Source of the DNA: Rhodanobacteraceae bacterium
GTDB taxonomy: Bacteria > Pseudomonadota > Gammaproteobacteria > Xanthomonadales > SZUA-5
Length of the DNA stretch: 64,000 nucleotides
Reading direction: 5' to 3'
Assembly (NCBI GenBank): GCA_031425695.1
Contig: JANPJV010000300.1
Location: 16,625-80,624, forward strand
The translations under genes and the position numbers were made by a program. Numbering within the stretch: the first letter of the stretch is position 1; each line of letters starts with the position of its first letter. Positions 1-55,690 of this stretch are shown in pieces. Below the pieces are notes generated by a model. That model was not told where the DNA came from and made no database searches. It saw only the letters and a program-made list of their open reading frames with translations.

Positions 1-9
1 GGATTTCGA

Positions 10-378: not shown

Positions 379-439
379 ACGTCGAAGGTTCGCGCAGTGG
401 GCCCTATCTGACGTTGGCACATTTTGAGTCGAGGCTACT

Positions 440-1741: not shown

Positions 1742-1807
1742 TGGATTGGTCAAATTGCTGTTGCATCTTGGCGCGACATAGATCCCAAGCAATTTCTCTG
1801 GATTAAA

Positions 1808-2335: not shown

Positions 2336-2550
2336 CCGATAGGGTTGCAATGGCCAAACTCAGAACCCACCATTTCGGGCATTCCTACCCGTAGACTCGG
2401 CCCGGCAGGCTTTTTTGCAGCCGGTGGTCGCTGCGGTTCGGGTGCGACTGTTGCCACCAACAGGGTGCTAATCAATGTCGGAGATTTGGGCTAAATCGGC
2501 GAGGTGCTGGGCGCGGAAAGCCTGTGAAGGTCCGCTGCGGAGGACCGTTT

Positions 2551-3300: not shown

Positions 3301-3303
3301 CCG

Positions 3304-6300: not shown

Positions 6301-7398
6301 GGCCAGCGTTTCGAGACCGAGTGGCCCGCCGGCATCGTCACCGGCGAAGGCATCGTGCGTCTGCTCGTGCGCGTCACGCCGGGCCGCGCGAACCTCTTGG
6401 AGATCGGCGGCGCTGAGCAACCAGTGGTCGCGCGGCCCATCTTCGACCGAGATACAGTCAAAGCATTCGCCGCCGAGGTAGTGCGGCTCGCTGGCCAGTG
6501 GCCACCAGTCGAGCCCGACACCGCGCGGCGTACGCTCGCGGGACTGCTCCCACACTTCGGCGGCGATCCGCTCGCACTTGGTGTGCGTATCTGCGACGAC
6601 GTCGAGATCGCCGAGACCGGCCATTTGTTCATCGGCCCCGTTGATCCGAAGCAGAGCATCGGCTTCATCATTGATCAGGCGCGAGAGCCGGTTACGCTCG
6701 ACGACCTGGCAGTTCGCGTACGGCGAGTTTTCGGGTTGCACACACCGTACCCGGATCAAGACAGCCTGCTCGCCATCCTGCACGACCTCGACTGCCGGGT
6801 GCAGGGCACAGATGTGTTGCCGGGCCGCGCGGGCTCGATTGTTGCAGCGCAGCCCCTAACGGCCGACGAACTACCGAGCGGCTTCGGCGCCGAGCGCAGC
6901 CCCGAGCTGGTGGTGCGTGACATGCTGAAAGAAGCGGCTGGTTCGCGCGGCTTCCGCATGCTGGTGACGCCACCCGAGGATCACGGCGAGATCGCACGAT
7001 CCGTTCCCGCCGCGCTCGGCGGCAAGTGGGTTTCGTTTGATGACGCATTCTTCGCCGAGCACGCGGCCGACATCAAGTCGCTCGAACGCGCCGAGCGCTT
7101 CGTCGCGCAGCGCGAAGCGCTAACCGAGGCCGCCGAACAGACACTCTTCAACCTATTGGAAGAACACGGTCGGCCGGGCAACGTAATCGTCCTCGGCGAC
7201 ACCGCGCTGTTCGGCTTGTGCGAGGCGCTCGACCTGCCGCGCCGGCTCTACGACGAGACGCTCTCCGGCAGCCGCGGTTTTTGGGTTCTCGTGGTTCCAG
7301 GCGTCATCCACAACCGTCAGCCGCGCTTTAACGAGGGCCCCGCCATGTGGCACCTCGAGGGCGCGACACTGCCTCTTCTAAACCCGCTTTCGGGCTGA
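3304..7398 (+). CDS. pglW: BREX type 2 serine/threonine kinase PglW (NERD + tandem kinase-like domains + HhH motifs)
   Basis: 1364 aa. NERD-like 'LDAVVVAPHAVFVVEIKSYRG'. First kinase-like domain degenerate ('HRLLRPDVVL', 'FAAPEV'). Second domain intact ('LGQGGMAVVY', 'ALKIA', 'HKDLKPDNLL', 'IIDFSLA'). Two HhH-like segments ('IHAIGTKTANEI', 'LPGIGRKKLAEV'). Confidence 0.9.
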   Translation: MAAKFIQIGESAHDAERQALRFLVEGLTEAFTVYGNAWLVERSGVVYELDAVVVAPHAVFVVEIKSYRGRIEGTDNDWWLPEKIRSPLKLNRTTSQVLKSHLKNASYQAGQVWTEGLVFLSATTDVGVRGPASNDRIHTRKTILAALQDPAFITRLSGGRSLTPSSSAERELLELFTGVQGGPRPVRRVREYEVIETLDHHDTFTELLGRNTLSGAERVLRIYSTPPLATQAQRDRIAERARWEAQVLGRLGRSEGVLTAEQPFSDESGIVLPLEHFKGITLTTWVERYGPDVRGKERADLRVRTDLWMRLAHTIDEVHRQGVVHRLLRPDVVLVEDKQEPTEIRVTGFDLAKQMTSDATISLTTIHDDRLVFAAPEVVTAFSSAEPASDQFSLGAILALILTGRPLFENTRELMAAGRLMRRVRDVSQRLPLSLDEAVARMIERRATDRYPTLAEAITAVRVGRDPSPRMQQALLPIAGRTPLDADNLQAGTRIGSDYEIVTRLGQGGMAVVYAARHLVSGRTRALKIARSEDAAEEALRGEYQVLAGLDHPNIVRVIDLTKMVEGRLTLVMERVSGMTLRQWLAQNPAPEPNAQRRLAEDLIAGIDYLERTSVTHKDLKPDNLLVSDGQLTIIDFSLAAMPEDASYGGTALYRDPSSVRWTHATDRFAAALCLFELYAGRHAFDGRVPEPGQAPNVSEDDIQPTGLAAFFRKALDSTPEKRFPSARTMREALLIALGEDTTPTSVETLPRQIDATTPLRTTGLSTRAIKTLARCQVNTVGQLLSLPVAQIRAIHAIGTKTANEIIAFQETLTSRGLEGTSTSTATIEPPLVPDLSNSPEPVQKLPLSDALLSALAQGGLPTVGAVAALTRSELLGLPGIGRKKLAEVVEALHQFRARTEGKSGGAEGGAHTLDRMWELASRPLSDGQRIAVERTIGITGAPETQEHIAGDLGKTQWQIGQDLSRGLERLDLTALADLTNAFDAVVDGFGGLVRLDEVGQRFETEWPAGIVTGEGIVRLLVRVTPGRANLLEIGGAEQPVVARPIFDRDTVKAFAAEVVRLAGQWPPVEPDTARRTLAGLLPHFGGDPLALGVRICDDVEIAETGHLFIGPVDPKQSIGFIIDQAREPVTLDDLAVRVRRVFGLHTPYPDQDSLLAILHDLDCRVQGTDVLPGRAGSIVAAQPLTADELPSGFGAERSPELVVRDMLKEAAGSRGFRMLVTPPEDHGEIARSVPAALGGKWVSFDDAFFAEHAADIKSLERAERFVAQREALTEAAEQTLFNLLEEHGRPGNVIVLGDTALFGLCEALDLPRRLYDETLSGSRGFWVLVVPGVIHNRQPRFNEGPAMWHLEGATLPLLNPLSG

Positions 7399-7408
7399 GC
7401 CAACTTCG

Positions 7409-10400
7409 ATGAAAGCAAGCGACCGAGCCCGCCTGACCACCGCTCTGCGCGACCATGTTGCGAAGATCGCTGGCGATCTGCGCGTCAAGATTCGCGCACC
7501 TGGCACCGTGCGGGCGGCCGCTGAGCAGCTTCACCGGGACGAGCGCGTCGGCGAAGATTTCGAGGTCTGGACCGACCTGCTTTCGCGCCGCGCGGCGGTG
7601 CTATGGGTTCTCAAGTCGGTCTACTTGCGTGTGCTCGAAGATCGCGGGCTCCTGCACCCTGGACGTCTGCTCGATGCCGAAGCGCAGCAGCTCTTCGAAA
7701 GGCTCGCGCCCAACCTCGGCGAGACCGCTTTCCTGCGCTGGATCTACAAAGACCTCGCGAGCCGGAATGGAGGCCTGCCAGAGCTGTTCAGTCCACAGCC
7801 CGCGGAGGTGGCGCTGCCCTCCGACGATCTTTCGCGCGCTCTGATCGCTTTCTGGCGCCACCGCGACGCCGACACGGGCACTGTGTGGAGTTTCGCCGAG
7901 GAGCATTTCGAGGGCGAGCTGATGGGCGACTTGTACCAGGAGCTCGATCCGGTCGTAAAAGACCGCTTCGCGCTTTGCCAGACGCCCGACTTCGTGCGCG
8001 CCTTCATCCTCGACCGAACGTTGACACCGGCCATCGAGACTTTCGGCGCCGACGAAGTACGGCTGCTGGATCCAGCTTGCGGCTCGGGCCACTTCCTCAT
8101 AGACGGGCTCAAGCGCATCGTTGCCGTGACCGCAGAGAAGCACCCGGACTGGGACCGCGCAAAGGTCGTCGCGCACGCGCTCGATCGCGTCGTCGGCATT
8201 GACCTCAACGACTACGCCTGTGCGCTGGCACGGACGCGCCTCATCATGACGGCTGCCGAGCTGGCGGGCGTGACCAAGCTCGGCGACGCCGCACGCTTCC
8301 ACCCGCACGTGTACTGGGCGGATGGGCTGGAGCAGGTGGAACGTGATGAAGTGAATCCAGCGTTTCAGTACGCGCTGTTTGGGAAGGTCGAAGAGAAGCC
8401 ACTCGCCACACTCACGCGCTCGGATGTGCGAGCGGCGCTCAAGAAGGTCTTCGAGAAGAAATTCCACGCGGTCGTGGCGAACCCGCCGTACATCGTGGAG
8501 CGCGATGAAGCGCGAAAGAAGTACCACCGGGAGAAGACGGGAAAGAAGCAGCGCTACGTCTCGGCATATCGCCAGTACTCGCTCGCTTCGCCCTTCACCG
8601 AGCGCTCCTTCCAGCTCGCAGAGAAGGCCGGTTACATCGGTCTCATCACCAGCAACAATTTCATGAAGCGGGAGTTCGGCAAGCCCCTCGTTGAGGAGTT
8701 CCTAAGCGGTATCGACCTAACGCTCGTCGCCGACACCTCGCAGGCGTATATCCCGTTCCACGGCACGCCAACAGTCTTGCTCTTCGGTCGAAACCAGCCG
8801 CCTAAGAGCAACACGGTTCGCGCGGTCATGGGCAAGCGCGGCGAGAGCGGCACTCCAGAGGACCCAGCCAAGGGCAAAGTGTGGTCGAGCATCGCCGACG
8901 GCTGGGACCAGAGCGGCTTCGAGAGCGAGTATGTCAGCGTCACCGATCTCCCGCGCGAGACGCTGGAAGAGCACCCGTGGAGTCTCGGTGGAGGTGGTGC
9001 GAGTGAGCTGAAGGAGTTCCTCGACCGCAATGGCATCTCGTATTTGAAGGATTTGATCACAGTAATCGGACGAACCAATGTCGTCGGTCACGACGACATA
9101 TGGATTGCTCCAGAGGCGAGCTTTCGACGACGCGGTCTCCGCGACGTTGTTGTGCCCTTCGTGATCGGCGAGACCGTCCGCGACTGGACGATCATCGATG
9201 CACCCTTCGCCATCTATCCGTACTTGGAGATGGGGGGAGCCACGTTTCCAGCGACTCACCCGCTCGTGACTGCTCTCTGGCCGTGGCGAGCGCTTCTCGA
9301 ACGCCGCACCGTCTTTGGCAAGGAGATGAAGGAGCACGGGCGCCCTTGGTGGGAGCACCTTGAGCACTACTCTGACCGCCTACGGACACCCCTCTCAATC
9401 GCTTTCGCCTTCGTCGCGACGCACAACCACTTCGTTCTTGACCGCGGCGGAAAGGTGTTCAAACAGAGCGCGCCAGTCATCAAACTCCCGGCCGGCGCCA
9501 GCGAAGACGACCACCTCGTGCTGCTGGGGCTGCTGAACTCGTCGACCGCGTGCTTCTGGATGAAGCAGGTGTTTCACAACAAGGGTGGGGGAACTGACTC
9601 GGGCAAGATGCAGTCGGACCTAGCCAAAGTCGCCCATGAATTCACGGCGACCGGATTGGAAGACCTGCCAGTCCCGGATCTTGCAACGAACCGAGCGTCG
9701 ATTGTTCGGATGGCACGGGCTATTGATGTCTTGGCCACTGAACGCGCGTGGGTGCTTGCCCGTGTTCTTCCCTCGATCGAGCTCCTAGCGGCCACCCCTA
9801 GCGAAGAACTGCTCGCAGTTATTTCAGCTGCCCGAGAACGTGAAGGACTGCTCTTGCAGCGACAGATCGTGCTCCAAGAGGAACTCGATTGGTCGGTCTA
9901 CAAGGCATTCGGGCTTGTCGAGCTGGAGGATGAGAATGCGATTTCTCTGCCCGAGTCCAGTATCGAAGTTGTTGAGGTTCCGATTGGCGCGCGGCCGTTC
10001 GAGATCCTTCAGGCACGCGGAGGTCGCATCACGGGCGTGGACTCCCAGTCCTTGGCTTCTCGGCTGCCAGATACGGTTGACGCGACGGTAGCGGCAGTCT
10101 GGGAGGCCAGAATGCGCGTAATACAAGCGTCCCCAGCGCTCTCATTGATCGAGCATGAGCGATACAAGCGACGCTGGCTGCTCACCCCGAAGCATCTCGC
10201 CGGCAGAGTAGAGACTTTTGATGATCGTCTCGGGATCAGACTTCGCATGCTTATCGGAGATCTGGTTGAGCTTAGTGCCAGACGGAGAACCTCAGCGTTT
10301 GACATCGCGCGCATAGCCGCTGACCTGCAAGCGGACGCCCGATTCGACATGCTGGCCCAACTGATTACCGGTCGACGCGACTTCAGCATGGATCAGCTCA

Positions 10401-11032
10401 TCCGCGATTTCGTGGACAACGATGCCGTGCCCAGTCATCCATTGCATCGCTACAGCCTCACGGGGCTAGTTAAGCACCGAGCCTGGGAAAGGACGTGGCA
10501 TGACCAGCGATGCGAAGACCTTGGTGAAGCCGTTGTGCCTGCAGCGCCGCCAACCTATGCCCAGCCAGATTTCGTGTCGCGCCGCTTGTTCGAGCTTCGC
10601 GGCAAGCTCGACGTCCCGAAGGAACGTTTCATCGCCTTCACCGAAGTCCCAGGCCGCTCTGGCGCTGAGACTCTCTACGGCTGGGCCGGCTGGACCGCGC
10701 AGCACCGCATGAAGGCCATCCTCGCAATCGACGAGGAGCTTGAGGACGCTTCGGTACCACTCGCGGACCGAATCGGCCTGCTCGATAGCGCGTGGCGCCT
10801 TCTGCCTGACGTGGCTCGCGAAGATGCCGCTGCGGCTACCCGGCTGAAGGCTGAACTGCAGGCGCTCGTCGGCCCCGAGGGACCGAGCCGCCAACTTATT
10901 GAGGACTGGAAGAAGCGCTTCCCGCCGCCGAACGCGCGTACCACCAGTGCCGCGAAGGGTGGCAGGATTGGTGCGAAGAAGTCTGCAGCGCCTGATAGCG
11001 ACACTGAAACTGAGGAGACGGATGAGGCATGA
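7409..11032 (+). CDS. pglX: BREX adenine-specific DNA methyltransferase PglX
   Basis: 1207 aa. SAM motif I 'LLDPACGSGHFL'. Catalytic motif IV 'VVANPPYIV'. Position between pglW and pglY. Confidence 0.9.
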   Translation: MKASDRARLTTALRDHVAKIAGDLRVKIRAPGTVRAAAEQLHRDERVGEDFEVWTDLLSRRAAVLWVLKSVYLRVLEDRGLLHPGRLLDAEAQQLFERLAPNLGETAFLRWIYKDLASRNGGLPELFSPQPAEVALPSDDLSRALIAFWRHRDADTGTVWSFAEEHFEGELMGDLYQELDPVVKDRFALCQTPDFVRAFILDRTLTPAIETFGADEVRLLDPACGSGHFLIDGLKRIVAVTAEKHPDWDRAKVVAHALDRVVGIDLNDYACALARTRLIMTAAELAGVTKLGDAARFHPHVYWADGLEQVERDEVNPAFQYALFGKVEEKPLATLTRSDVRAALKKVFEKKFHAVVANPPYIVERDEARKKYHREKTGKKQRYVSAYRQYSLASPFTERSFQLAEKAGYIGLITSNNFMKREFGKPLVEEFLSGIDLTLVADTSQAYIPFHGTPTVLLFGRNQPPKSNTVRAVMGKRGESGTPEDPAKGKVWSSIADGWDQSGFESEYVSVTDLPRETLEEHPWSLGGGGASELKEFLDRNGISYLKDLITVIGRTNVVGHDDIWIAPEASFRRRGLRDVVVPFVIGETVRDWTIIDAPFAIYPYLEMGGATFPATHPLVTALWPWRALLERRTVFGKEMKEHGRPWWEHLEHYSDRLRTPLSIAFAFVATHNHFVLDRGGKVFKQSAPVIKLPAGASEDDHLVLLGLLNSSTACFWMKQVFHNKGGGTDSGKMQSDLAKVAHEFTATGLEDLPVPDLATNRASIVRMARAIDVLATERAWVLARVLPSIELLAATPSEELLAVISAAREREGLLLQRQIVLQEELDWSVYKAFGLVELEDENAISLPESSIEVVEVPIGARPFEILQARGGRITGVDSQSLASRLPDTVDATVAAVWEARMRVIQASPALSLIEHERYKRRWLLTPKHLAGRVETFDDRLGIRLRMLIGDLVELSARRRTSAFDIARIAADLQADARFDMLAQLITGRRDFSMDQLIRDFVDNDAVPSHPLHRYSLTGLVKHRAWERTWHDQRCEDLGEAVVPAAPPTYAQPDFVSRRLFELRGKLDVPKERFIAFTEVPGRSGAETLYGWAGWTAQHRMKAILAIDEELEDASVPLADRIGLLDSAWRLLPDVAREDAAAATRLKAELQALVGPEGPSRQLIEDWKKRFPPPNARTTSAAKGGRIGAKKSAAPDSDTETEETDEA

Positions 11033-12441
11033 ACACCCTAGTGCCGCATGGCAAGCCGGAGGGCGTGATCGCGCCAATCAAGTCGGTCCAGATTGAGAAC
11101 TTTCGAGGAGTTCGAGATCTGACCATCGATCTAGACGAGCACGTCACAGTGTTCTTCGGCATGAACGCGGCCGGCAAGACCACGTTACTCGACGCGCTTG
11201 CTATAGGCCTAGGGGCGGTTGTCGCGCGCGTACCTCGTGTTAAGGGCATCTCCTTTGACAAGCACGGAGACATCCGCGTCCCGTGGAAGGACCCAAAAAA
11301 TCACGTCGACGGGAAGCGCGGTGCTGAGCAGCCGTACACACGTGTCACCTTGACAAGCGCAAGTGGTCTGTCCTGGGACGTGCACAAGCTGCGGTGGGCG
11401 GGCGACAAGGTCCCAGGTGCTTCGCTCGGCGTCAAGCGACTCCACGATGTCCTCGATCCCATCGTGAAGGAGGCGCTCGACGGCGGTGAGGAGACTGCAA
11501 GGACACAGAGCCCATTTCCTCTGGTTGCTGCCTACGGCACCGAGCGCTCGGTCGTGGCAGTTCCCCTCCGAAAGCGAGGCTTCAACGAAGAGTTCCAGCG
11601 ACTCGGCGCACTCGATGGATCGCTGCGAACCAGCACCCGATTCAAGACAGTCTTCGAGTGGTTTGTCGTTGCCGAGGACGAGGAACGCCGCGAGCGCGAG
11701 CGCCAAAAGGACTTTGAGTTTCGCTACCCCGCGCTCGAATGGGTGCGCAGCGCCATCGAACGCGCGGGCCTGCGGTGCAAAAGGCCCCGTATCGAGACGA
11801 GGCCAAGCCTGCGCATGCTTGTCGACTTCGAGCACACCGATGGGTCGCTCGAAGCGCTCGATATAGCGCGTCTGTCGGATGGCTATCGGACACACTTCGC
11901 TCTCGTTGTAGACATCGCCCGGCGAATGGTGCAGCTCAACCCGAGCGACGACCTCACGGCGAGGGACCGCGGGACAAACAGCGAAGCCATCATCCTCATC
12001 GACGAGATCGACCTCCACCTGGATCCGACGTGGCAGGCCAGTGTGGTCAAAGGGCTACGCGACACGTTCCCGCGCGCACAGTTTATCTTGACCACGCATT
12101 CCGAGCAGGTCATCGGCTCCGTGCCCGCCTCGTCGGTGCGAAAGCTCGTGCCCGGCGATGGCGAGGTGCTCGTGGAAAACGTCCCCTTTGCCGAGGGCGC
12201 GACCAGCGAGCGCATCCTCATCGATCTGATGGGCGCGAAGGAGCGCGTCGCAGGTCCCAACACCGAGAAGCTGACTGCGTATATGGACCTGGTAAATCGG
12301 GGCGAAGTCGATAGTGTGGGCGCAAGAGCCCTACGGGCTGAACTCGAGGAACTGCTTCCGGGCGACGAGCGGCTGCATCAGGCTGACCTTGAAATTCAGA
12401 AGCGTGCCCTGCTGCGGCGGATCAAGGAAGGCGCTTTGTGA
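11029..12441 (+). CDS. ptuA: SMC/ABC-type AAA ATPase, PtuA-like (Septu-type)
   Basis: 470 aa. 'IENFRGVRDLTIDL..FFGMNAAGKTTLLDAL' (Walker A), 'AIILIDEIDLHLD' (Walker B/D-loop), 'ILTTHSEQV'. ATGA overlap with the pglX stop. Symbol assigned by architecture only. Confidence 0.7.
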   Translation: MNTLVPHGKPEGVIAPIKSVQIENFRGVRDLTIDLDEHVTVFFGMNAAGKTTLLDALAIGLGAVVARVPRVKGISFDKHGDIRVPWKDPKNHVDGKRGAEQPYTRVTLTSASGLSWDVHKLRWAGDKVPGASLGVKRLHDVLDPIVKEALDGGEETARTQSPFPLVAAYGTERSVVAVPLRKRGFNEEFQRLGALDGSLRTSTRFKTVFEWFVVAEDEERRERERQKDFEFRYPALEWVRSAIERAGLRCKRPRIETRPSLRMLVDFEHTDGSLEALDIARLSDGYRTHFALVVDIARRMVQLNPSDDLTARDRGTNSEAIILIDEIDLHLDPTWQASVVKGLRDTFPRAQFILTTHSEQVIGSVPASSVRKLVPGDGEVLVENVPFAEGATSERILIDLMGAKERVAGPNTEKLTAYMDLVNRGEVDSVGARALRAELEELLPGDERLHQADLEIQKRALLRRIKEGAL

Positions 12442-13253
12442 AGCGCGTCCGCTCGCTGACCGCCGAGCCGCTGCCGCTCGCGAACTACCGAGCCAATAAC
12501 CCCGGCGAAGAGAAGCGCCCGGCCACAGAGGCGAAATCGGTCTGGAGTGGCTTCAAGTCCGATCAGGCGGCATACCGGCAGGTGCTCGACGACCTCGTAA
12601 GGACGCAACAAGGGTTGTGTCTCTACTGCGAACAGCTGCTCGTCGATCAGTGCGGGGGACCGATCTTCGGCGACTACCAGATCGAACACGTCTTGGCGAA
12701 ATCGGGGGCAACGGGCCGCGCTCTCGACTGGGCCAATCTCGTACTCGCCTGCACCGGTGGCACGTACCCGCACCATCAGGACGCGTTGCGCTTCATGCCG
12801 GGTCCGAACCAATCGTGCGGCCAGACCAAGGACGATGCGGATCTGCCACCGGGGACTGATCCGCGGAGCATTCCGCTAGCCGGTTCGATTGTCGACGTCG
12901 ACATGGTAGGGAAACTCGAAGCTAACGCCGCCAACTGCACAGCCTCTGGCGTCTCGGTGCGAGACGTAGCGCGAGTGATCGCATTGCTGAACCTCAATTG
13001 CGAGCGGCTCCGGAAGGCGCGGCAAAATCAGCGCGACAACATCAACTCATGGTTTGTGCCCCTGCTTACCGAATTGCTTGCTGCGACACATCTCAACGCT
13101 GCGGAACGCCAACAGATGCTGGATCTTTGGATCGCTGGGCGGCTCCGGCCAAATCCGCAGGGAAATTTGCGGGCCTTCTGGAGTACGGAACGGCTAGCGA
13201 TCGGAGAAGCCGCCGAGATGTGGATTTCGAACAACCAAGGACTGTTCCAATGA
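12438..13253 (+). CDS. ptuB: HNH-type endonuclease, TIGR02646/PtuB-like (Septu-type)
   Basis: 271 aa. 'CLYCEQ..', 'YQIEHVLAKS', 'WANLVLAC', 'SCGQTK' = HNH/His-Me finger layout. GTGA overlap upstream and ATGA overlap downstream. Confidence 0.7.
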   Translation: MKRVRSLTAEPLPLANYRANNPGEEKRPATEAKSVWSGFKSDQAAYRQVLDDLVRTQQGLCLYCEQLLVDQCGGPIFGDYQIEHVLAKSGATGRALDWANLVLACTGGTYPHHQDALRFMPGPNQSCGQTKDDADLPPGTDPRSIPLAGSIVDVDMVGKLEANAANCTASGVSVRDVARVIALLNLNCERLRKARQNQRDNINSWFVPLLTELLAATHLNAAERQQMLDLWIAGRLRPNPQGNLRAFWSTERLAIGEAAEMWISNNQGLFQ

Positions 13254-16200
13254 CCACGATCACCGAGGCCTTCGAGCTACCGCGCCCCGAAGAGATCCGG
13301 GCGATGGGTTTCGTGGTCAAGCTGCGCGAGCTCGACGCCAACTCCGACGATGTCGCGCAGCTCGCACGTGACTACGTCGTCACGCCAGCCATCGAGAAGG
13401 AACTGCCGCGCATCCTTGACGATATGAAGCAGGTCTTCGATCGTGGCGAGGAGTACGGTCGCTTCATTCATGGCAGCTTCGGCAGCGGCAAGTCGCACTT
13501 CATGACGATGCTTTCGCTGCTGGTTGAGGGCGTTCCAGCCGCGTGGAAGAAGTTCCAGCCGGTACTCAATGCGCACCGCGATGCGAAGGCGAGCAAGGGC
13601 GCTGAGGCGGTCGACCATGAGGCATGGCTGGCGAGCGCGGGCTTGCTGGTTGTGCGTATCCACATGCTCTCCGTGCGCGGCAGGAGCACCGGGTTCGACC
13701 GCGCCGTTTATGAGGGCTTCAATGCTGCGCTCAAGCGGCGCGGCAAGCAGCCCTTCGAGTTCCTAAACGTCGATGCGATCTTCGAGGAGGTCCGCCGCGA
13801 GGCAAAGGAATACGGCGACATCGTCTGGAAGCGTCTCGAGGCGGAGAGCATCGTCGGCGGGCGCGAGGATTTCGAAGCCATCGCTTCGGGTTCGATCCAG
13901 GCAAAGGAGCGATTCGCGCGAATTTGGCTGAAGTACAAGGGTCGGGACGCTGCGGACGCAGGCGTTGATCCACGCTGGAGCGAGGGGCTCCGGCGCTTGG
14001 CCGAGCATGCCAAGGCGCAGGGCTTCGGCGGCATCGTGCTGATGATCGACGAGTTCCTCCTATGGCTAGCCGAGAAGAGCGGCCAGGAGTTCGTCGCGGA
14101 GATCAACAACCTCAATGTCATCGTCGATCACAACACCGGGCACCGCCCCGCGCCGATCTTTGTCTTCGTTGCGCGCCAACGAAACCTCCAGGAATTCTTC
14201 CCAGACCTCGTGGACGAGTCGAAGATCCACGAACATCTCGACCATCATGCCAAGCGTTTCGAGGTCACCAAGCTGCAGGACGTCGAACTGCGCCACATCG
14301 TGCGGGGCCGGGTGCTTCGCCCGAAGAATGCAGATGCCGTTCGCGCAGCAGTGAACTCGCTTGCCGAGCGTCACCAGAAGGTGCTGCCGGCGCTCCTTGC
14401 CGGTGGTGACATCGACTACCTTCGGGACGTCTACCCGTTCCACCCCGCGCTCATCGAAATGCTGGTCGACGTGACGTCGCTCATGCAGCGCGAGCGCTCG
14501 GCGCTGCGCCTGCTGTACGAACTGCTTGTGATCCACTACCCGACGCTTCCGCTGGGCGAGTTCCTGCCTGTGGGATCTGCGTTTTCGGCGATTTTCCCCG
14601 AATCAGGCGTCGAAGCGAGCAAGAAGGTGGAGCTCATGCAGGACATCCACCACCAGTACTACTCGCGACTCGCACCGGCGATGGCCCAGCTGGCAAAGGC
14701 TGCGACCGGTGAACCGGGGGGCGAATTTCCCAACGAACGGCGGCGCGCGCTTGATCAGCTCGTCAAGACAGTGCTCCTCGCGGAGGTCTCTCCGCGGCTC
14801 AAGCAGGGCGGCCTCACCGTCGAGCGCCTGGTGCAGCTCAATGCAGTCGACGTCGAGGGTGAGACGTTCCGGGGCCAGGTACGCGTCGCGGAAACCGACC
14901 TACTCGCGCTATCGCAGCGTGTGCCGGATCTTCAGGTGGCGGGTCAGGGCAAGACGGCGCTCGTGCGCTACGTGCTAGGGCGTGTCAGTCTCGGTGAGGT
15001 CCTCGCGCGCGCGCGTTCGAAGGTCGACAATCCTGCCCAGCGGTTCAAAGTGTTTTGGTGCGCGCTGCGCGCTGCCCTCGGCGTCGCGGGCTCAAAGGGC
15101 TTCGACGAGGGCGGAGCGAACGAGGGCGACTGGGACCTCGGCTGGCGTCGAACCAAGCGCCGCGGACGCCTCAAGCTGGGCAACGTGCGTGAGATGTCGT
15201 ATGACGACTTCGCACCGCCGGACGGCACCTTCAAGATCCTCGTCGACTACCCGTGGGACGAGCCCGGGCACACCGTCGATGAGGACCGCATGCGCGCCAC
15301 CAACGTACGTAAGAAGCAAGGGCTGGTTCACACGGTTTGTTGGCTGCCTCGCCATATGAGCCCGACTGAGCTTGGCGTGCTGACAGAGCTTGCCGCAGTG
15401 CGTTATTTGCTCTCGGACGCAGGACAGGAAGACCTGCTGGAGACGCTGGGGCCGCAAGAGAAAAGCAAGGTTCTTGACCAAGCGGGGATACGCCAGAAGT
15501 CATACGAAGTGCAACTCGATGACCTGCTCAAGGTGGTCTACGTTCAACACGGCGAGTTCTTCGCTCTGATCTCAGACGTCGACTCGAGTCGCCCGCGCGA
15601 GACGCTCGCAGAGAACCTAGAGCACGTCGCGGCCCTACTCATGGACCGCCGTTATCCGCAGCACCCGACCTTCCTCGCCGAGCCGAAAAAGCAGGATCTC
15701 GAAGCACTGCTCGGCTGGATGGTCGCCGCTGGCGAGGGCACTGTGTCGGTGGCCTACGATGAAAACGTCGCCAAGGTGCTGAAGACACTTGGTCAGCCGC
15801 TCGAGCTCGTGAACCTTGGGCAGACCAAGGCCTCGTTGCGTCTCGACTCCCGCTATATCAAAGACGTCCTCCAGCGCGTAGACCAGGATTCAGTGGCCTG
15901 GGTGCCGATCGCTGACCACCTTCGCGAAACTTACGGGTTCCAGCCACTGCTCATCGATCTCTTCCTGTGCTTCCTATGCCAGCGCGACCACCGCGCCTTG
16001 CTTGACGTCGATGGCGATACAGTCGACGTGCGCATCGGCATGCCGCCGTCGACGCGCATCCGACTACAGCGTGGCAAGTTGGTGAGCGCCGCCGACTGGC
16101 ACCGTCTGCGTGATCTCGGCAACCAGCTGTTCGAGGTGCCGCGTCCGGCCGCTCATCGCTCGCTGCAGGGACAGGACCACTTCACCGCGGCGCTCCGTAT

Positions 16201-16873
16201 GAAGGGACAGGCGAAACGTACTGTGCTGCAGGGGCTCCATGCACGCCTCGTCCATCTCAGCGTGGACCAAGGTGACCGGCTGGGCGAACTGGCAACTGCC
16301 AATACGCGTCTCGGCCCACTCGCGCAGGCCACGACCGACACGCACAAGGTGCTTACAGAGCTGCTTGCCGCATGGCCTGACGATCCATCCGAGGCGCTGC
16401 GTGCCCTCGTGCAGCAGGTGGAGAGCATCCGCGATGCACTCGGCGAACTAAACGAACATGCGCGTGCGAATCTCAAGGCGGGTGTCAGTCACTCTGCCGT
16501 CGGCACCGAGGTGAGCGGCCATCTGAGCGCGCTCGACAGCCGCCTTGCAGCGGCTCAGTCCGAACAGCCGCTGACGAAGGACTGGGTCATCAGCTGGAAC
16601 AAGAAGGCGCAAGAGCTGACCAAACGGCTTATCGAACAACCACCGGCGCCGGGGCCGCAGCCGCCGGTCGACGGTGGTAGCCCGAAGCCTCCCGTGGCTG
16701 TGCCACCCCCAGCCGCGCGCTCGGTCCTTGTGACGGCGCGCGTCAATCCAACTGATGCCGACGCCATCTCATCGTTCCTCGCTGCAGTCCGCAAGGCGCT
16801 GACCGAGCAGGGAACAAAGCCGATCAACATCGCGCTCGTGCGCACTGAGCCGGATGAGGGACGCACGGAGTGA
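13250..16873 (+). CDS. pglY: BREX P-loop ATPase PglY (BrxC family)
   Basis: The track ORF starts at 12998, but its first 84 codons overlap the HNH gene and are R/A-rich. ATG 13250 overlaps the preceding TGA. Walker A 'GSFGSGKSHF'. About 1207 aa. Canonical position. Confidence 0.88.
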   Translation: MTTITEAFELPRPEEIRAMGFVVKLRELDANSDDVAQLARDYVVTPAIEKELPRILDDMKQVFDRGEEYGRFIHGSFGSGKSHFMTMLSLLVEGVPAAWKKFQPVLNAHRDAKASKGAEAVDHEAWLASAGLLVVRIHMLSVRGRSTGFDRAVYEGFNAALKRRGKQPFEFLNVDAIFEEVRREAKEYGDIVWKRLEAESIVGGREDFEAIASGSIQAKERFARIWLKYKGRDAADAGVDPRWSEGLRRLAEHAKAQGFGGIVLMIDEFLLWLAEKSGQEFVAEINNLNVIVDHNTGHRPAPIFVFVARQRNLQEFFPDLVDESKIHEHLDHHAKRFEVTKLQDVELRHIVRGRVLRPKNADAVRAAVNSLAERHQKVLPALLAGGDIDYLRDVYPFHPALIEMLVDVTSLMQRERSALRLLYELLVIHYPTLPLGEFLPVGSAFSAIFPESGVEASKKVELMQDIHHQYYSRLAPAMAQLAKAATGEPGGEFPNERRRALDQLVKTVLLAEVSPRLKQGGLTVERLVQLNAVDVEGETFRGQVRVAETDLLALSQRVPDLQVAGQGKTALVRYVLGRVSLGEVLARARSKVDNPAQRFKVFWCALRAALGVAGSKGFDEGGANEGDWDLGWRRTKRRGRLKLGNVREMSYDDFAPPDGTFKILVDYPWDEPGHTVDEDRMRATNVRKKQGLVHTVCWLPRHMSPTELGVLTELAAVRYLLSDAGQEDLLETLGPQEKSKVLDQAGIRQKSYEVQLDDLLKVVYVQHGEFFALISDVDSSRPRETLAENLEHVAALLMDRRYPQHPTFLAEPKKQDLEALLGWMVAAGEGTVSVAYDENVAKVLKTLGQPLELVNLGQTKASLRLDSRYIKDVLQRVDQDSVAWVPIADHLRETYGFQPLLIDLFLCFLCQRDHRALLDVDGDTVDVRIGMPPSTRIRLQRGKLVSAADWHRLRDLGNQLFEVPRPAAHRSLQGQDHFTAALRMKGQAKRTVLQGLHARLVHLSVDQGDRLGELATANTRLGPLAQATTDTHKVLTELLAAWPDDPSEALRALVQQVESIRDALGELNEHARANLKAGVSHSAVGTEVSGHLSALDSRLAAAQSEQPLTKDWVISWNKKAQELTKRLIEQPPAPGPQPPVDGGSPKPPVAVPPPAARSVLVTARVNPTDADAISSFLAAVRKALTEQGTKPINIALVRTEPDEGRTE

Positions 16874-19452
16874 GTGCAGCCCAACTCCTTCTTCGTCGAC
16901 TACTTGATCAAGCCGGCGGTGCCAGCGAGACAGGCTATGTGCTCGTGATCGACGGCGAAGGCCTCGAGAACCTGCCGGACCAGATGCCGACCCCAAAGGG
17001 CGCCTACGGCGTGCACCGCGTCGCGTCCGAGCTCGGTCTTCGGCATTTGCTGTGGAAAGCGAAGGGTGCGCCGCTGATCGCAGTCATGCCTGAGGATGTG
17101 GCTCGGCGAGTCCAGAACGCACCCGACATCCTTCGGCGCGCGAAAAACCAACGCGTCCATGCCCTTTCGGTGAACGACGTGCTGGAGGTCGTACTCGGAG
17201 TGCGCGTTGTGGGCGCCGACGCGCCCCATATGCAGCAGCTTGCGCTGGAGCATGTCGACAAGCTTGGCATCGCGATGAGCCACCGTACACTGCCTACCGT
17301 TGTCGACCGACGGCTGCTGACGGAGCTGCTCGTCGATGTGAGCGTGGGTGAGCACGTTCGAACGCGCAGCCCGGCACAGCTCCTCGCCACGTGGGTACAA
17401 GAGCCGCCGCGCTGGCCGGCAAATATCAGCCAACTCGTGCGCGACGCGATGCCGACTCTGCACGGCGACGAAGGGCGCCTGCTCGCGTGGGCGCTAGCTG
17501 AGCCTGACACGCGTTTGCGCGACCTCGTCGTCTACGGCGCGGTGCTCACCGTAGAAGCCCACGAGTTGCCGAAACCTGCGTGGGGTCCGCTGTGGAAAGC
17601 CGCAACCGAAACTCCCATCGAGATGGATCGGCGCATCCTCCGGCGCACCGTCGCACGCCTCGCCGAGGAAGCGCTGGCGCTGTTGGGCGACGCGGGCGGC
17701 CAATTACTCGCGGGCGCCGACCGTGTGGGGCGCGAGAGCCTCACGCCGACGCAACTGCAGACGAGTCGTGTGCTGCCGCTCGCGTTTTCCGACCGCTGCC
17801 ACGCCCTTGCGCAGCAGGCAGCGGCCGGCAAGGCGATCAGCGCAGCTGACACAACCTGGCTCGCGGGCCACCGCGCCGCGCAGATGAACCTTGGCGACCT
17901 CGCAGTGCTCGAGGCGATGGCGCGCATCTCGCGCTACCTCGACCAGCCGTTCAGCCCTAAAGCCGACTTGCTAGAGCAGGTGCGCTGTTATCAACGGAGC
18001 GGCGCATTCGTCGACCTTGCGACGATGCAACTTCGCCGTGCGCTTGCGAGTAGCGTCCACTACCACGTCGAGGCCAATAAGCTCCTTGCGGCGTGTCGCG
18101 AGCGCCGTAATCGCGAGAACCGGCAATTTGCGGAGACAATGGCGAGCGGCTACGAGGCCGCGCTGCACCGCGAGGGACTCACGCCTCTGCATCGATTGTG
18201 GAAGCGCACCGTCGCTCCACTCTGGCAGTCCGAGCCTGACGCGCGCCTCTTCCTTGTCGTCCTCGATGGCTGCAGCTACCCGGTGTTCCTCGAACTGCTG
18301 TATTCGCTCGCGCAGGACAGCAGCTTCCCGCTTGGAATCAGGCCAGACGCGAACGGCCACGTGCATGGGTTCCCAGCACTCTCACCGCTGCCGACCGTCA
18401 CCAGTCACGCGCGTGGCGCGATCTTTCTCGGCGAGCTGCCGAAAGATCCACTGGTCGCTGAGACCGTGTTTCGCGACATGGACGAAGCGAAGACCGATAA
18501 GGCCCGCTTCAATCAAAACGCCGCGCTTGGAGGCAAATCGCGGCGGCTTTTCCTAAAGGGAGATCTGAACGACGGCGGCCAGGCGTTGCTATCCGCGTTG
18601 AGCGACGACGGCCTTTCGGTTGTCGGTGTCGTGTTCAACGCGGTCGACGACCAGATCGGCTCTTCGAACACGGGCGCGACGGTAAAGATTTCGCCTGAGG
18701 ACATCAACGCATTCAAGCCCGCGCTGCGCGTCGCGCTGAAGGCCGGGCGGCGAGTGCTGATCACGGCCGACCACGGTCATAGCCCCTACATCGACAAATC
18801 TCTTCGCGCCGGAAGCGGCAAGACACCGAGGTACACCGCGCTCGGCAAGCACGATGTCGCGCCTGAGGGCTTCATCGAGATCGATCTCGCCGGACTCGGT
18901 GGACCGCCCGAACGGCGCGCATTCGCTTGGCAGTCCGGCGTGTATCTCGGCGGCCCGCAGGTGGGCTTCCACGGCGGCGTCGCACTGGAGGAGGTCGTCG
19001 TACCGCTTGCGTGGATAGAGCGCGATGGCCTGCACGCCGACGAGCCCTCATGGTGGCACGGGCGCGGCACGCTCGCTGATTTCGCCACCGAGGTTAAGCC
19101 GGTGCTTCCGCCCATCGTCACGCCGCTGCCGTCGGACCGGGCGCCAACGAAGCCGAAGGCGCAGCTGTCACTGTTCGAGCCCGCCGACAGAGCTTCGTCG
19201 CTGCCGCTTCCGGACACACTGATCGACCGTCTCAGCATGGATGAACGCAGCATCCTGGTCCTGCTTCGCGATACCGGGTCAGCGCGCGCCAGCGAACTTG
19301 CGCAACGCCTGAACAAGAACCCCGGCCGCTTGAATGGGCTCATGCGCGCTTTGCGCCGAACCCTCCACGCCGAGGGGTACGTCCTCTTCACCGATGAAGT
19401 TCTTCCCAGTGGGGAAACCATGTACCGCTATCAATCGAAGGACGGACGCTGA
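16870..19452 (+). CDS. pglZ: BREX alkaline-phosphatase-fold protein PglZ with C-terminal winged-helix-like tail
   Basis: 860 aa. 'LFLVVLDGCSYPVF' and 'VLITADHGHSPY' PglZ/AP-superfamily motifs. C-terminal 'SILVLLRDTGSARASELAQRLN' HTH-like. GTGA overlap with pglY. Confidence 0.9.
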   Translation: MSAAQLLLRRLLDQAGGASETGYVLVIDGEGLENLPDQMPTPKGAYGVHRVASELGLRHLLWKAKGAPLIAVMPEDVARRVQNAPDILRRAKNQRVHALSVNDVLEVVLGVRVVGADAPHMQQLALEHVDKLGIAMSHRTLPTVVDRRLLTELLVDVSVGEHVRTRSPAQLLATWVQEPPRWPANISQLVRDAMPTLHGDEGRLLAWALAEPDTRLRDLVVYGAVLTVEAHELPKPAWGPLWKAATETPIEMDRRILRRTVARLAEEALALLGDAGGQLLAGADRVGRESLTPTQLQTSRVLPLAFSDRCHALAQQAAAGKAISAADTTWLAGHRAAQMNLGDLAVLEAMARISRYLDQPFSPKADLLEQVRCYQRSGAFVDLATMQLRRALASSVHYHVEANKLLAACRERRNRENRQFAETMASGYEAALHREGLTPLHRLWKRTVAPLWQSEPDARLFLVVLDGCSYPVFLELLYSLAQDSSFPLGIRPDANGHVHGFPALSPLPTVTSHARGAIFLGELPKDPLVAETVFRDMDEAKTDKARFNQNAALGGKSRRLFLKGDLNDGGQALLSALSDDGLSVVGVVFNAVDDQIGSSNTGATVKISPEDINAFKPALRVALKAGRRVLITADHGHSPYIDKSLRAGSGKTPRYTALGKHDVAPEGFIEIDLAGLGGPPERRAFAWQSGVYLGGPQVGFHGGVALEEVVVPLAWIERDGLHADEPSWWHGRGTLADFATEVKPVLPPIVTPLPSDRAPTKPKAQLSLFEPADRASSLPLPDTLIDRLSMDERSILVLLRDTGSARASELAQRLNKNPGRLNGLMRALRRTLHAEGYVLFTDEVLPSGETMYRYQSKDGR

Positions 19453-20824: not shown

Positions 20825-20825
<1 letters not shown>
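19452..20825 (+). CDS. brxD: BREX ATP-binding protein BrxD (DUF2791-like P-loop)
   Basis: 457 aa. Walker A 'GEYGTGKTF'. Walker B 'LVVVLDEVE'. TGATG junction with pglZ. Confidence 0.85.
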
Positions 20826-23566
<2,741 letters not shown>

Positions 23567-55616: not shown

Positions 55617-55630
55617 GCTGATGCGGGTCC

Positions 55631-55667
55631 TGAAAATGAAAAACCCGCCGACGAAAGCCGTGGCGGG
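55631..55667 (-). terminator. intrinsic terminator-like hairpin 14 nt upstream of the methyltransferase start codon
   Basis: The minus strand reads CCCGCC-ACGGCTTTCGTC-GGCGGG followed by TTTTTCATTTTCA. The methyltransferase GTG is at 55616. Confidence 0.55.
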
Positions 55668-55690
55668 TGGAGTGGAATCGAAGGTGAGAG

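What the first reader, a model, noticed from the sequence alone, without database searches (positions are those of the whole stretch)
11029..13253. Septu-like ATPase + HNH pair translationally coupled inside a type 2 BREX operon
Two genes sit between pglX and pglY.
- The first is a 470-aa SMC/ABC-type ATPase with Walker A 'GMNAAGKTT', 'ILIDEIDLHLD' and 'LTTHS'.
- The second is a 271-aa His-Me/HNH protein with 'CLYCE', 'QIEHVLAKS', 'WANLVLAC' and 'SCGQTK'.
- This is the PtuA/PtuB architecture, known as Septu and as retron-associated effectors.
- All three junctions are 4-nt stop/start overlaps: ATGA at 11029-11032, GTGA at 12438-12441 and ATGA at 13250-13253.
- The pair therefore lies inside the BREX transcription/translation unit, not beside it.
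- Hand-counted G+C (about 60%) is close to that of the BREX genes, which argues against a very recent insertion.

BREX has no known nuclease effector. An obligatorily co-expressed ATPase-nuclease raises the possibility of a functionally integrated hybrid rather than two stacked systems.
Basis: partly seen in the sequence, partly recalled or inferred. Interest (0 to 1): 0.72.

Follow-up and report, generated by a model that had tools for sequence, protein, structure and literature searches.

The report
Septu cassette in a BREX cargo slot
A complete two-gene Septu anti-phage module (ATPase plus HNH nuclease) sits between two genes of a type 2 BREX operon, at a position that in related bacteria holds many different interchangeable defence modules, so it is an ordinary "embedded" second defence system and not a new BREX-nuclease hybrid.

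Summary
Window 11029-13253 encodes a 470-aa PtuA ABC ATPase and a 271-aa PtuB HNH nuclease, inside a complete type 2 BREX operon (pglW-pglX-[ptuA-ptuB]-pglY-pglZ-brxD-brxHI). All three junctions are the stated 4-nt overlaps.

The interpretation as a functionally integrated hybrid is not supported.
- **The pglX|pglY junction is a cargo slot.** In 54 metagenomic loci found through PglY alone, 11 are empty and 43 are occupied. Most hold DarTG or HEC-01; others hold a DUF2326/LmuB-like gene, PDC-S02 or KilA-N. Only 2 carry Septu genes.
- **The same PtuA clade mostly occurs alone.** Stand-alone relatives at 78% and 75% identity are closer to the window's PtuA than BREX-embedded copies at 66% and 58%. 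The BREX backbones of those embedded copies are 78-89% identical to the window's.
- **Embedded and stand-alone PtuAs interleave** in a neighbour-joining tree and show no BREX-specific insertions.
- **BREX survives loss of the nuclease.** In Sorangium So ce327 ptuB is reduced to a 19-codon relic while the BREX genes stay intact.
- **Overlapping junctions are generic** to the operon and to every slot occupant.

Embedding of defence systems in BREX, and ABC-ATPase+HNH dyads inside BREX loci, are already published. I rate this a new member of a known kind, of low to moderate interest.

The parts
2524..3300 (+). First gene of the operon (258 aa, no family hit). A 249-aa gene occupies the same position before pglW in L013 and L078; its similarity to this gene was not tested.
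3304..7398 (+). pglW (NERD nuclease + Ser/Thr kinase + HhH)
   Evidence: Pfam; PADLOC PglW 1.8e-127
7409..11032 (+). pglX, the BREX-2 adenine methyltransferase. Residues about 500-1000 are hypervariable between loci; the C-terminal 200 aa are moderately conserved.
   Evidence: NCBIfam NF033451, 916 bits; sliding identity
11029..11032 (+). ATGA overlap: pglX stop and ptuA start
   Evidence: sequence
11029..12441 (+). ptuA, a Septu ABC ATPase of the stand-alone type (470 aa). Motifs: Walker A 11158-11184, signature LSDGYR 11872-11889, Walker B/D-loop 11992-12024, H-loop 12088-12102.
   Evidence: PADLOC PDLC00311 4.7e-94 over residues 18-462; PDB 8EE4 PtuA 5.7e-32 over residues 19-447; invariant motifs in alignment A1
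12438..12441 (+). GTGA overlap: ptuA stop and ptuB start. The same 4-nt overlap occurs in stand-alone Septu loci.
   Evidence: L017, L020 and L021 gene coordinates
12438..13253 (+). ptuB, a Septu HNH nuclease (271 aa). Motifs: CxxC 12618-12629, catalytic His84 12687-12689, Asn100 12735-12737, SCGQTK 12813-12830.
   Evidence: PADLOC PDLC00349 2e-47 over residues 1-265; TIGR02646 55.9 bits, cutoff 52.15; invariant C61, C64, E83, H84, N100, C105, C127 and K131 in alignment A3; alignment to Ec83 PtuB
13250..13253 (+). ATGA overlap: ptuB stop and pglY start. The same overlap with pglY is kept by DarG, HEC-01B and other cargo, and by pglX in empty loci.
13250..16873 (+). pglY (BrxC/PglY P-loop ATPase)
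   Evidence: PADLOC BrxC-PglY 5.5e-143; 120 homologues listed at 67-100% identity, including the window's own protein
16870..19452 (+). pglZ
   Evidence: NCBIfam BREX-2 PglZ, 275 bits, cutoff 200
19452..20825 (+). brxD
   Evidence: NCBIfam BrxD, 527 bits
20825..23566 (+). brxHI (DEAD-box helicase with a C-terminal 3'-5' exonuclease domain)
   Evidence: PADLOC BrxHI 7.4e-263; Pfam

Best explanation
**What it is.** The two genes are an intact Septu system (PtuA ABC ATPase + PtuB HNH nuclease) of the stand-alone type. It occupies a cargo slot between pglX and pglY of a type 2 BREX operon. The bacterium is probably a member of the Myxococcota.

**How it got there (inferred).** In this BREX-2 clade the slot is a recombination-exchangeable position. 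Conserved arms flank it: the last ~200 aa of PglX on one side and the very conserved PglY N-terminus on the other. The slot is usually filled with one or more self-contained defence or abortive-infection modules.

**How it is expressed (inferred).** The Septu cassette is transcribed with BREX and translationally coupled to it through the ATGA/GTGA overlaps.

**How it works (inferred from work on other PtuAB).** It works as Septu does elsewhere. PtuA oligomerises and holds PtuB. On a phage cue the HNH nuclease is released against nucleic acid; DNA nicking and tRNA-Tyr cleavage have been reported. This gives a second, mechanistically different layer of immunity stacked inside BREX, not a BREX effector.

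**Shown here:** gene identities, intact motifs, operon anatomy, slot variability, and the phylogenetic interleaving of embedded and stand-alone copies.

**Inferred:** co-transcription, translational coupling, the exchange mechanism, and functional independence.
For: **Identity.**
- Full-length PADLOC PtuA and PtuB matches.
- TIGR02646 above its cutoff.
- Best PDB hit is stand-alone Septu PtuA 8EE4 along the whole length.
- The retron-type PtuA model NF041760 scores 208 bits against a cutoff of 500.
- No reverse-transcriptase domain turned up in the ORFs that were scanned, and there are no Rfam hits.

**The slot.** The PglY-anchored metagenome survey gave 54 informative loci.
- 11 are empty, with pglX abutting pglY.
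- 10 hold DarTG; 15 hold HEC-01 (AAA_21 ATPase + DUF4276); 4 hold a DUF2326/LmuB-like gene.
- Combinations occur: DarTG+HEC-01, LmuB-like+DarTG, KilA-N+HEC-01.
- Single loci hold PDC-S02 or a PDC-M28-like gene; 6 hold unknown cargo.
- Septu genes appear in only 2.

**Recurrence of Septu at this site.** It is directly confirmed in the window, L003, L013, L016, L077, L078 and the P0006 contig. Five more cases are inferred from matching contig lengths.

**Autonomy.**
- Relatives at 71-78% PtuA identity lie with no BREX gene within 10 kb wherever that much flank was available. These are L015, L017, L020 (Xylophilus) and L021 (Myxococcus).
- Backbone identity (PglY, PglZ, BrxD, BrxHI) is 86-89% to L003 and 78-81% to L016. 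Their PtuA/PtuB identities are only 66/60% and 58/44%.
- Embedded and stand-alone PtuAs interleave in the NJ tree.
- PtuB catalytic residues are identical in both contexts, and neither the window's PtuA nor its PtuB carries an insertion or extension of its own (two embedded PtuBs, L016 and L078, have short C-terminal tails).
- Sorangium L013 keeps an intact BREX-2 with ptuB reduced to a 19-codon relic.

**Exchange.**
- No direct repeats flank the cassette.
- The arm on the PglX side is 63-80% identical. The PglY N-terminus is up to 96% identical.

**Literature.**
- OLD-type ABC ATPase + HNH dyads within BREX loci are described as 'backup effectors' (PMC12839542).
Against: - No experiment shows that this cassette defends on its own, or that BREX here works without it.
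- Every slot occupant keeps tight 4-nt overlaps on both sides, and so does the ptuB relic. Expression coupling to pglY is therefore under selection, which leaves room for some functional linkage.
- PtuA identity and PglY identity are loosely correlated among embedded copies (for example 81%/96% in L072 and 57%/74% in L069). Some vertical co-inheritance with the backbone does occur.
- The NJ tree has no support values.
- Five 'embedded' tags rest on contig-length matching alone. The three such tags I checked directly were all correct.
Confidence: 0.78

Rival explanations
1. Guard or backup coupling. PtuAB is mechanistically independent of BREX but functionally linked to it. It is co-expressed from the BREX operon and fires when a phage inhibits or evades BREX. 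Known parallels are PrrC with EcoprrI, and PARIS triggered by the anti-restriction protein Ocr.
For: - Both published surveys propose this logic for embedded ABC-ATPase modules.
- The slot is occupied in about 80% of loci, mostly by abortive-infection-type modules such as DarTG, HEC-01 and Septu.
- Overlap with pglY is conserved for all cargo.
Against: - There is no direct evidence.
- The trigger reported for stand-alone Septu is a phage tail fibre, not an anti-BREX factor (as cited in PMC12819146).
- Identical-type cassettes work outside BREX contexts.
- This reading is compatible with the best explanation and does not exclude it.
Confidence: 0.15
2. True hybrid. PtuAB is the nuclease arm of this BREX-2 system. 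It is physically or functionally integrated with PglX or PglY and required for BREX restriction.
For: - The pair lies inside the operon with three 4-nt overlaps.
- Its G+C is close to that of the neighbouring genes.
- The arrangement recurs in at least 12 loci.
Against: - 52 of 54 sister loci found through PglY alone lack Septu genes, and 11 have nothing in the slot.
- The Sorangium locus has lost ptuB but keeps all BREX genes.
- Embedded PtuAB has no distinguishing elements and interleaves with stand-alone copies. Retron-co-opted PtuA differs on both counts.
- The same overlaps occur for unrelated cargo.
- BREX-2 already carries candidate nucleases: PglZ, the PglW NERD domain and the BrxHI exonuclease domain (PMC12839542).
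Confidence: 0.05
3. Decaying or selfish passenger. The cassette hitch-hiked into the slot by recombination and is on its way to loss, contributing nothing in this genome.
For: - Decay is seen elsewhere: the ptuB relic in L013, a truncated PtuA without PtuB in L069, PtuB split over two frames in L072, and only a PtuB fragment in L005.
Against: - In the window both ORFs are full length, and every invariant catalytic or structural residue of the family is intact.
- The HMM alignments cover the full length.
Confidence: 0.04
4. A different ABC-ATPase system (PARIS AriAB, Gabija, OLD, RloC) mis-read as Septu.
For: The N-terminal Walker A region gives weak hits to AriA, OLD, RecF and Rad50 models.
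Against: - PtuA models score 314 bits over the full length. AriA scores 74 bits in two separate local stretches, the best covering only residues 17-58.
- The partner is an HNH protein of family TIGR02646, not a TOPRIM protein or a helicase.
Confidence: 0.01

Closest known systems
Stand-alone Septu (PtuA/PtuB; PDB 8EE4 family)
   Same: - Two co-oriented genes with a 4-nt overlap.
- PtuA is about 465-470 aa with Walker A, an LSDGxR signature, Walker B and an H-loop.
- PtuB is a TIGR02646-type HNH protein with CxxC, EH and N motifs.
- There are full-length profile matches.
- Close relatives (71-78% identity) lie alone in other genomes.
   Different: This copy has no obvious promoter region of its own. 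It sits between pglX and pglY, with its start and stop codons overlapping those genes.
[quoted passage not shown]
   Same: - A complete second defence system is nested between genes of a multi-gene host system, in the same orientation.
- The embedded system is also common outside the host.
- The slot holds varied cargo, including HEC-01, PDC-S02 and PDC-S22, which that work defined.
   Different: - That paper's main text highlights Septu inside Hma, not inside type 2 BREX.
- I did not find the specific pglX|pglY slot of the Myxococcota BREX-2 clade, or its occupancy spectrum, described there.
'Auxiliary/backup effectors' of BREX: OLD-type ABC ATPase + HNH dyads (PMC12839542, NAR 2026)
   Same: That paper reports ABC ATPase + HNH nuclease dyads within or immediately beside core BREX loci. 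It interprets them as a backup layer.
   Different: - It treats them as recruited BREX accessories.
- My comparative data show free exchange with stand-alone copies and with unrelated cargo, which argues for modular stacking.
- The text I could read does not call the dyad Septu or give the type-2 position.
Retron type I-A (Ec78/Eco7, Ec83), which co-opted PtuAB
   Same: The same effector pair is recruited into a larger system.
   Different: - Retron PtuA is about 550 aa, with added elements (a helical flap and a shortened m-loop). It forms its own phylogenetic cluster.
- The window's PtuA matches those chains only in its C-terminal part and scores below the retron-PtuA cutoff.
- No reverse transcriptase or ncRNA was found here.
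Streptomyces coelicolor Pgl, the prototype type 2 BREX
   Same: pglWX and pglYZ are not contiguous there either. They form two operons 6 kbp apart (PMC4365076).
   Different: In the window the intervening genes are a compact, overlapping Septu pair within a single operon. I did not examine the content of the S. coelicolor gap.

Membership tests
Septu (PtuAB) | PtuA: ABC-type ATPase matching PtuA profiles over its full length, with Walker A, signature, Walker B and H-loop | tested here: met
   PADLOC PDLC00311 4.7e-94, residues 18-462 against profile positions 4-453 of 455. PDB 8EE4 PtuA 5.7e-32 over residues 19-447. The motifs are invariant in A1.
Septu (PtuAB) | PtuB: HNH (His-Me) nuclease of the TIGR02646 type with intact catalytic His and Asn and Cys ligands | tested here: met
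   TIGR02646 scores 55.9 bits against a cutoff of 52.15. PADLOC PDLC00349 2e-47 over residues 1-265. C61, C64, H84, N100, C105 and C127 are invariant in A3. His84 aligns with the His that is replaced by Ala in PDB 9O4A.
Septu (PtuAB) | Adjacent, co-oriented ptuA then ptuB, with no retron reverse transcriptase or ncRNA | tested here: met
   The Pfam scans of the ten operon ORFs and of ten of the larger flanking ORFs found no RT domain. There are no Rfam hits. The retron-type PtuA model NF041760 scores 208 bits against a cutoff of 500.
Septu (PtuAB) | PtuA-PtuB oligomeric complex and anti-phage activity | not testable with these tools
   This needs biochemistry and plaque assays.
BREX type 2 (Pgl) | pglW, pglX, pglY, pglZ, brxD and brxHI in one locus | tested here: met
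   PADLOC hits all six. NCBIfam scores above cutoff for BREX-2 PglX (916 vs 400), BREX-2 PglZ (275 vs 200) and BrxD (527 vs 350). The PglY and PglW equivalog models score below their strict cutoffs (286 vs 1700; 393 vs 990).
Embedded defence system (sensu Payne et al. 2024) | Genes of one system lie between core genes of another on the same strand | tested here: met
Embedded defence system (sensu Payne et al. 2024) | The embedded system is also commonly found outside the host system, which implies autonomy | tested here: met
   11 PtuA-clade loci are not embedded at the pglX|pglY slot: none has pglY downstream of ptuB, and no BREX gene lies within the flank available, which ranged from a few hundred bases to 10 kb. 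Embedded and stand-alone copies interleave in the tree.
Integrated BREX component (core or obligate accessory gene) | Conserved presence across the BREX-2 clade, and co-divergence with the backbone | tested here: not met
   Septu genes occur in 2 of 54 PglY-anchored loci. PtuA/PtuB identities of 58-66%/44-60% contrast with backbone identities of 78-89%. The ptuB relic in L013 sits beside an intact BREX.
PARIS / Gabija / OLD | ABC ATPase paired or fused with a TOPRIM nuclease (plus a helicase for Gabija) | tested here: not met
   The partner is an HNH protein. AriA, GajA and Old models hit only the Walker A region or score far lower.

The most novel reading that the evidence does not exclude
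The pglX|pglY position of this BREX-2 clade is a dedicated plug-in socket. Interchangeable abortive-infection modules (Septu, DarTG, HEC-01 and others) are expressed in fixed translational coupling with PglY. They are functionally wired to BREX as guards that fire when BREX is blocked. On this reading the Septu pair is a conditional effector of the composite system and not merely a neighbour.
Probability: 0.12. Interest if true: 0.7.

Novelty: new member of a known kind. Interest (0 to 1): 0.3.

Why it matters
As it stands this is one more example of defence systems nested inside BREX, a published phenomenon, so it changes little.

The comparative result has some practical value:
- **A catalogue of cargo.** In one Myxococcota-centred BREX-2 clade a single precisely bounded slot is occupied in about 80% of loci by rotating cargo. 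That gives a clean 'guilt-by-embedding' list. It includes unclassified cargo: a 676-716-aa DUF2326/LmuB-like gene and a two-gene cassette with no family hit.
- **A natural experiment.** The same BREX backbone occurs with different or no cargo, and once with a ptuB deletion relic. This is suitable material for testing whether embedded modules are independent layers or guards of the host system.

Tried and rejected
- **Genome-contig scan with a PtuA alignment.** It returned only 11 loci because just two peptide patterns were used. That was enough for context but not for statistics. I compensated with encoding-contig look-ups and a PglY-anchored metagenome scan.
- **Supplement searches.** I searched the supplements of the Payne preprint for Septu, BREX type II and DarTG, and those of the NAR 2026 paper for OLD-ABC, Myxococcota, Sorangium and DarT. 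The first search found no hits. The second found only alignment listings of taxon names and OLD-ABC headings, with nothing on cargo. I could not establish whether Septu in type 2 BREX is tabulated there.
- **Promoter and terminator scan of 1800-21000.** It found fewer sites than in shuffled sequence and none at the junctions. This is consistent with one operon. It is weak evidence, because Myxococcota promoters may not fit the sigma-70 consensus.
- **Repeat search.** No direct repeats or IS-like ends flank the cassette, so I rejected transposition or site-specific insertion as the likely route.
- **Rfam scan.** Nothing was found, so there is no sign of a retron ncRNA.
- **First tree attempt.** It timed out. 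I redid it with a hand-computed Kimura distance and NJ, which gives no bootstrap support.
- **Families considered and rejected on score and partner domain:** PARIS, Gabija, OLD, RloC and retron type I-A.
- **Not run:** structure prediction, fold search and the 1.84-billion-protein profile search. The family assignment was already unambiguous.

Full report
**1. The observation**

The + strand of window 2.5-23.6 kb carries a tight operon:
- orf258, 2524-3300
- pglW, 3304-7398
- pglX, 7409-11032
- a 470-aa ORF, 11029-12441
- a 271-aa ORF, 12438-13253
- pglY, 13250-16873
- pglZ, 16870-19452
- brxD, 19452-20825
- brxHI, 20825-23566

Pfam, PADLOC and NCBIfam identify all six type 2 BREX genes. Examples are BREX-2 PglX at 916 bits (cutoff 400), BREX-2 PglZ at 275 bits (cutoff 200) and BrxD at 527 bits.

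Reading the sequence confirms ATGA at 11029-11032, GTGA at 12438-12441 and ATGA at 13250-13253.

Measured G+C is 61.6% for ptuA and 61.2% for ptuB (GC3 73% and 72%). GC3 is 76-80% in pglW, pglY, pglZ, brxD and brxHI. pglX as a whole is similarly lower (GC3 73%), and its 3' half lower still.

The overlaps are not peculiar to the pair. pglY/pglZ overlap by 4 nt, and pglZ/brxD and brxD/brxHI by 1 nt. No promoter-like or terminator-like site lies at the junctions.

**2. Identity of the pair**

The 470-aa protein matches PADLOC PtuA models end to end (4.7e-94, residues 18-462). AriA, Old and GajA models hit only the Walker A region or score far lower.
- Its best solved relative is the stand-alone Septu PtuA 8EE4 (5.7e-32, residues 19-447).
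- The ~550-aa retron PtuA chains align mainly with its C-terminal part.
- The retron-type NCBIfam model scores 208 bits against a cutoff of 500.

The 271-aa protein matches PADLOC PtuB over residues 1-265 (2e-47). It passes the curated cutoff of TIGR02646 (55.9 vs 52.15).
- It aligns with the Ec83 PtuB structure.
- His84 falls on the His that is Ala in the mutant entry 9O4A.

In alignments with relatives, the ATPase motifs and the PtuB residues C61, C64, E83, H84, N100, C105, C127 and K131 are invariant. No reverse-transcriptase domain turned up in the ORFs I scanned, and no Rfam family was found in the window. The pair is an intact Septu system of the stand-alone type.

**3. Where relatives of this PtuA live**

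The PtuA search returned a well-populated clade at 55-82% identity. I examined contexts directly.

Embedded between pglX and pglY of BREX-2:
- the window
- L003 (Sandaracinaceae MAG; PtuA 66%, PtuB 60%), with a 675-aa DUF2326/LmuB-like gene upstream
- L013/L014 (Sorangium sp. So ce327; PtuA 78%), with HEC-01A/B and a PDC-S02-like fragment
- L016 (PtuA 58%, PtuB 44%)
- L077 (PtuA 71%), with an OLD-like ATPase and a DarT fragment plus DarG
- L078 (PtuA 63%)
- the P0006 contig (PtuA 77%)

Five further cases (P0040, P0063, P0075, P0077, P0090) are inferred because the PtuA and PglY hit lists share contig lengths. All three such inferences that I checked were correct.

Not embedded at the pglX|pglY slot (no pglY after ptuB, and no BREX gene within the flank available, which ranged from a few hundred bases to 10 kb):
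- L015 (78%), L017/L018 (75%) and L002 (74%)
- L021 (Myxococcus sp. NMCA1, 72%), in a defence island
- L020 (Xylophilus rhododendri, 71%), among housekeeping genes
- L019 (82%), downstream of a Macro-domain gene
- L005 to L009

Stand-alone pairs have the same 4-nt ptuA/ptuB overlap.

**4. Incongruence with the BREX backbone**

| Locus | PglY, PglZ, BrxD, BrxHI identity to window | PtuA / PtuB identity to window |
|---|---|---|
| L003 | 86-89% | 66% / 60% |
| L013 | 84-86% | 78% / absent |
| L016 | 78-81% | 58% / 44% |

Stand-alone copies from other lineages (71-78%) are closer to the window's PtuA than the embedded copy in the most similar backbone.

An NJ tree of 118 PtuA sequences scatters the 12 embedded copies across the tree, interleaved with stand-alone copies. 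The tree has no support values.

Embedded and stand-alone proteins have the same length and the same invariant residues. This is the opposite of retron co-option, where PtuA acquired new structural elements and forms its own cluster (PMC12819146).

**5. The slot**

To survey BREX-2 without bias towards Septu, I searched metagenome contigs with an alignment of PglY N-termini. I then mapped what lies between pglX and pglY. Of 54 informative loci:

| Content of the slot | Loci |
|---|---|
| Empty (pglX stop overlaps pglY start) | 11 |
| DarTG | 10 |
| HEC-01 (AAA_21 ABC ATPase + DUF4276) | 15 |
| 676-716-aa DUF2326/LmuB-like gene | 4 |
| Combinations: DarTG+HEC-01; LmuB-like+DarTG; KilA-N (PDC-S22)+HEC-01; truncated PtuA+HEC-01 | 4 |
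| PtuA+PtuB | 1 |
| PDC-S02-type (DUF1016/YhcG) | 2 |
| PDC-M28-like | 1 |
| Unidentified cargo | 6 |

About 80% of loci carry cargo, and Septu genes occur in 2 of 54.

PglX is conserved over residues 1-500 (roughly 60-95% identity). It is hypervariable over residues 500-1000 (25-65%) and moderately conserved over the last 200 (57-80%). The PglY N-terminus is 55-96% identical. The slot is therefore bracketed by homology arms.

No direct repeats flank the window's cassette. I infer exchange by homologous recombination and not by transposition.

**6. Junctions**

Cargo of every kind keeps 4-nt overlaps with pglX and pglY. Empty loci have pglX-ATGA-pglY.

In Sorangium L013, ptuB is reduced to ATGAAG plus its last 48 nt. 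This is a 19-codon in-frame mini-ORF that still overlaps ptuA and pglY by ATGA.

This shows two things:
- The HNH nuclease is dispensable for keeping an intact BREX-2 operon.
- Selection acts on the coupling into pglY, whatever sits upstream.

**7. Mechanism**

The best-supported reading is modular stacking. The Septu cassette is expressed from the BREX operon and acts as Septu does elsewhere. Published work on other PtuAB reports the following (PMC12819146; PMC13096335 abstract):
- a PtuA oligomer holding PtuB
- nuclease activity reduced by ATP
- DNA nicking
- cleavage of the tRNA-Tyr variable loop
- for stand-alone Septu, sensing of a phage tail fibre

A guard or backup relationship to BREX is plausible and is proposed in the literature, but it is untested. 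The hybrid idea is disfavoured by sections 3 to 6. The locus also already encodes candidate nucleases: PglZ, the PglW NERD domain and the BrxHI exonuclease domain (PMC12839542).

**8. Novelty**

Three published points cover most of the finding:
[quoted passage not shown] It includes Septu within Hma and the same-orientation rule (10.1101/2024.01.29.577857).
- A 2026 survey reports OLD-type ABC ATPases paired with HNH and other nucleases within BREX loci, as backup effectors (PMC12839542).

I did not find a description of the specific, highly occupied pglX|pglY slot in this BREX-2 clade, or of its cargo spectrum. That is an increment, not a new kind of system.

**9. Verdict**

The family assignment is confirmed. 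The 'integrated hybrid' interpretation is not supported. This is a new member of a known kind, with interest 0.3.

Noticed in passing
window 25364-63155, minus strand: A prophage abuts the BREX-2 operon. Its genes are: lysozyme 25364-26128, tape measure 35262-39236, major capsid protein E 42722-43723, head protease 44100-45428, portal 45432-46970, large terminase 48134-50092, primase 57182-59464 and a Sak4-like annealing protein 61561-62397. I did not determine whether BREX is cargo of this element.
   Followed up: partly
window 52975-54216 and 54213-55862, minus strand: Two adjacent, overlapping prophage genes each encode a ParB-like N-terminal domain fused to a DNA methyltransferase (PHROG 498, E-values 5.7e-166 and 3.4e-112). 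These may be phage self-protective methylases sitting next to a methylation-based defence system.
   Followed up: no
L013 11419-11478 (Sorangium sp. So ce327, CP150330.1): ptuB is reduced to a 19-codon in-frame relic (its start codon and one further codon, plus its last 48 nt). The relic still overlaps ptuA and pglY by ATGA. ptuA and all BREX-2 genes remain intact.
   Followed up: yes
L022-L076, the region between pglX and pglY: The slot is occupied in about 80% of loci by DarTG, HEC-01, PDC-S02, PDC-S22 (KilA-N) and combinations of these. DarTG and HEC-01 are far commoner occupants than Septu.
   Followed up: yes
L026 7951-9981; L027 7834-9984; L039 6271-8280; L003 1656-3683: A recurrent single-gene cargo of 669-716 aa has only weak family hits: PADLOC LmuB at 1.7e-10 to 3.9e-13, and Pfam DUF2326 close to its cutoff. 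It may be an unclassified SMC/ABC-like embedded defence candidate.
   Followed up: partly
L052 1086-2093 and 2115-2810; also the slot cargo of L054, L056 and L066: In L052 the slot holds two genes (335 and 231 aa) with no Pfam or PADLOC hit. The cargo of L054, L056 and L066 did not match my reference cargo set by tblastn.
   Followed up: no
L019 395-4531: The closest PtuA relative (82%) lies outside any visible BREX locus. It directly follows a Macro-domain (DarG-like) gene with a 4-nt overlap. A 102-aa ORF sits where ptuB should be, and a HEC-01-like pair lies on the opposite strand. The same cargo modules seem to travel together.
   Followed up: no
window 8900-10400 (PglX residues about 500-1000): PglX is mosaic. 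Compared with sister loci, residues 1-500 are roughly 60-95% identical, residues 500-1000 only 25-65%, and residues 1000-1200 57-80%. This probably reflects swapping of the target-recognition domain. It coincides with the lower GC3 in this part of pglX.
   Followed up: partly
window 2524-3300: A 258-aa first gene of the operon has no hit in Pfam, PADLOC, NCBIfam or PHROGs. A 249-aa gene occupies the same position before pglW in L013 and L078, but I did not test whether it is similar.
   Followed up: no
window 1623-1652 and 23865-23894: An imperfect 30-nt inverted repeat (77% complementary) brackets the whole BREX-2 operon. It may be chance. G+C also drops to 49-53% in window 1-2000.
   Followed up: no
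L072 2-1253; L069 6986-8137: Other embedded Septu copies look damaged. In L072 PtuB matches in two pieces that meet at base 1011 and are in different reading frames, with residues 170-190 unmatched, which points to a frameshift or an assembly error. L069 has a PtuA truncated at about residue 387, with no PtuB, followed by HEC-01.
   Followed up: no
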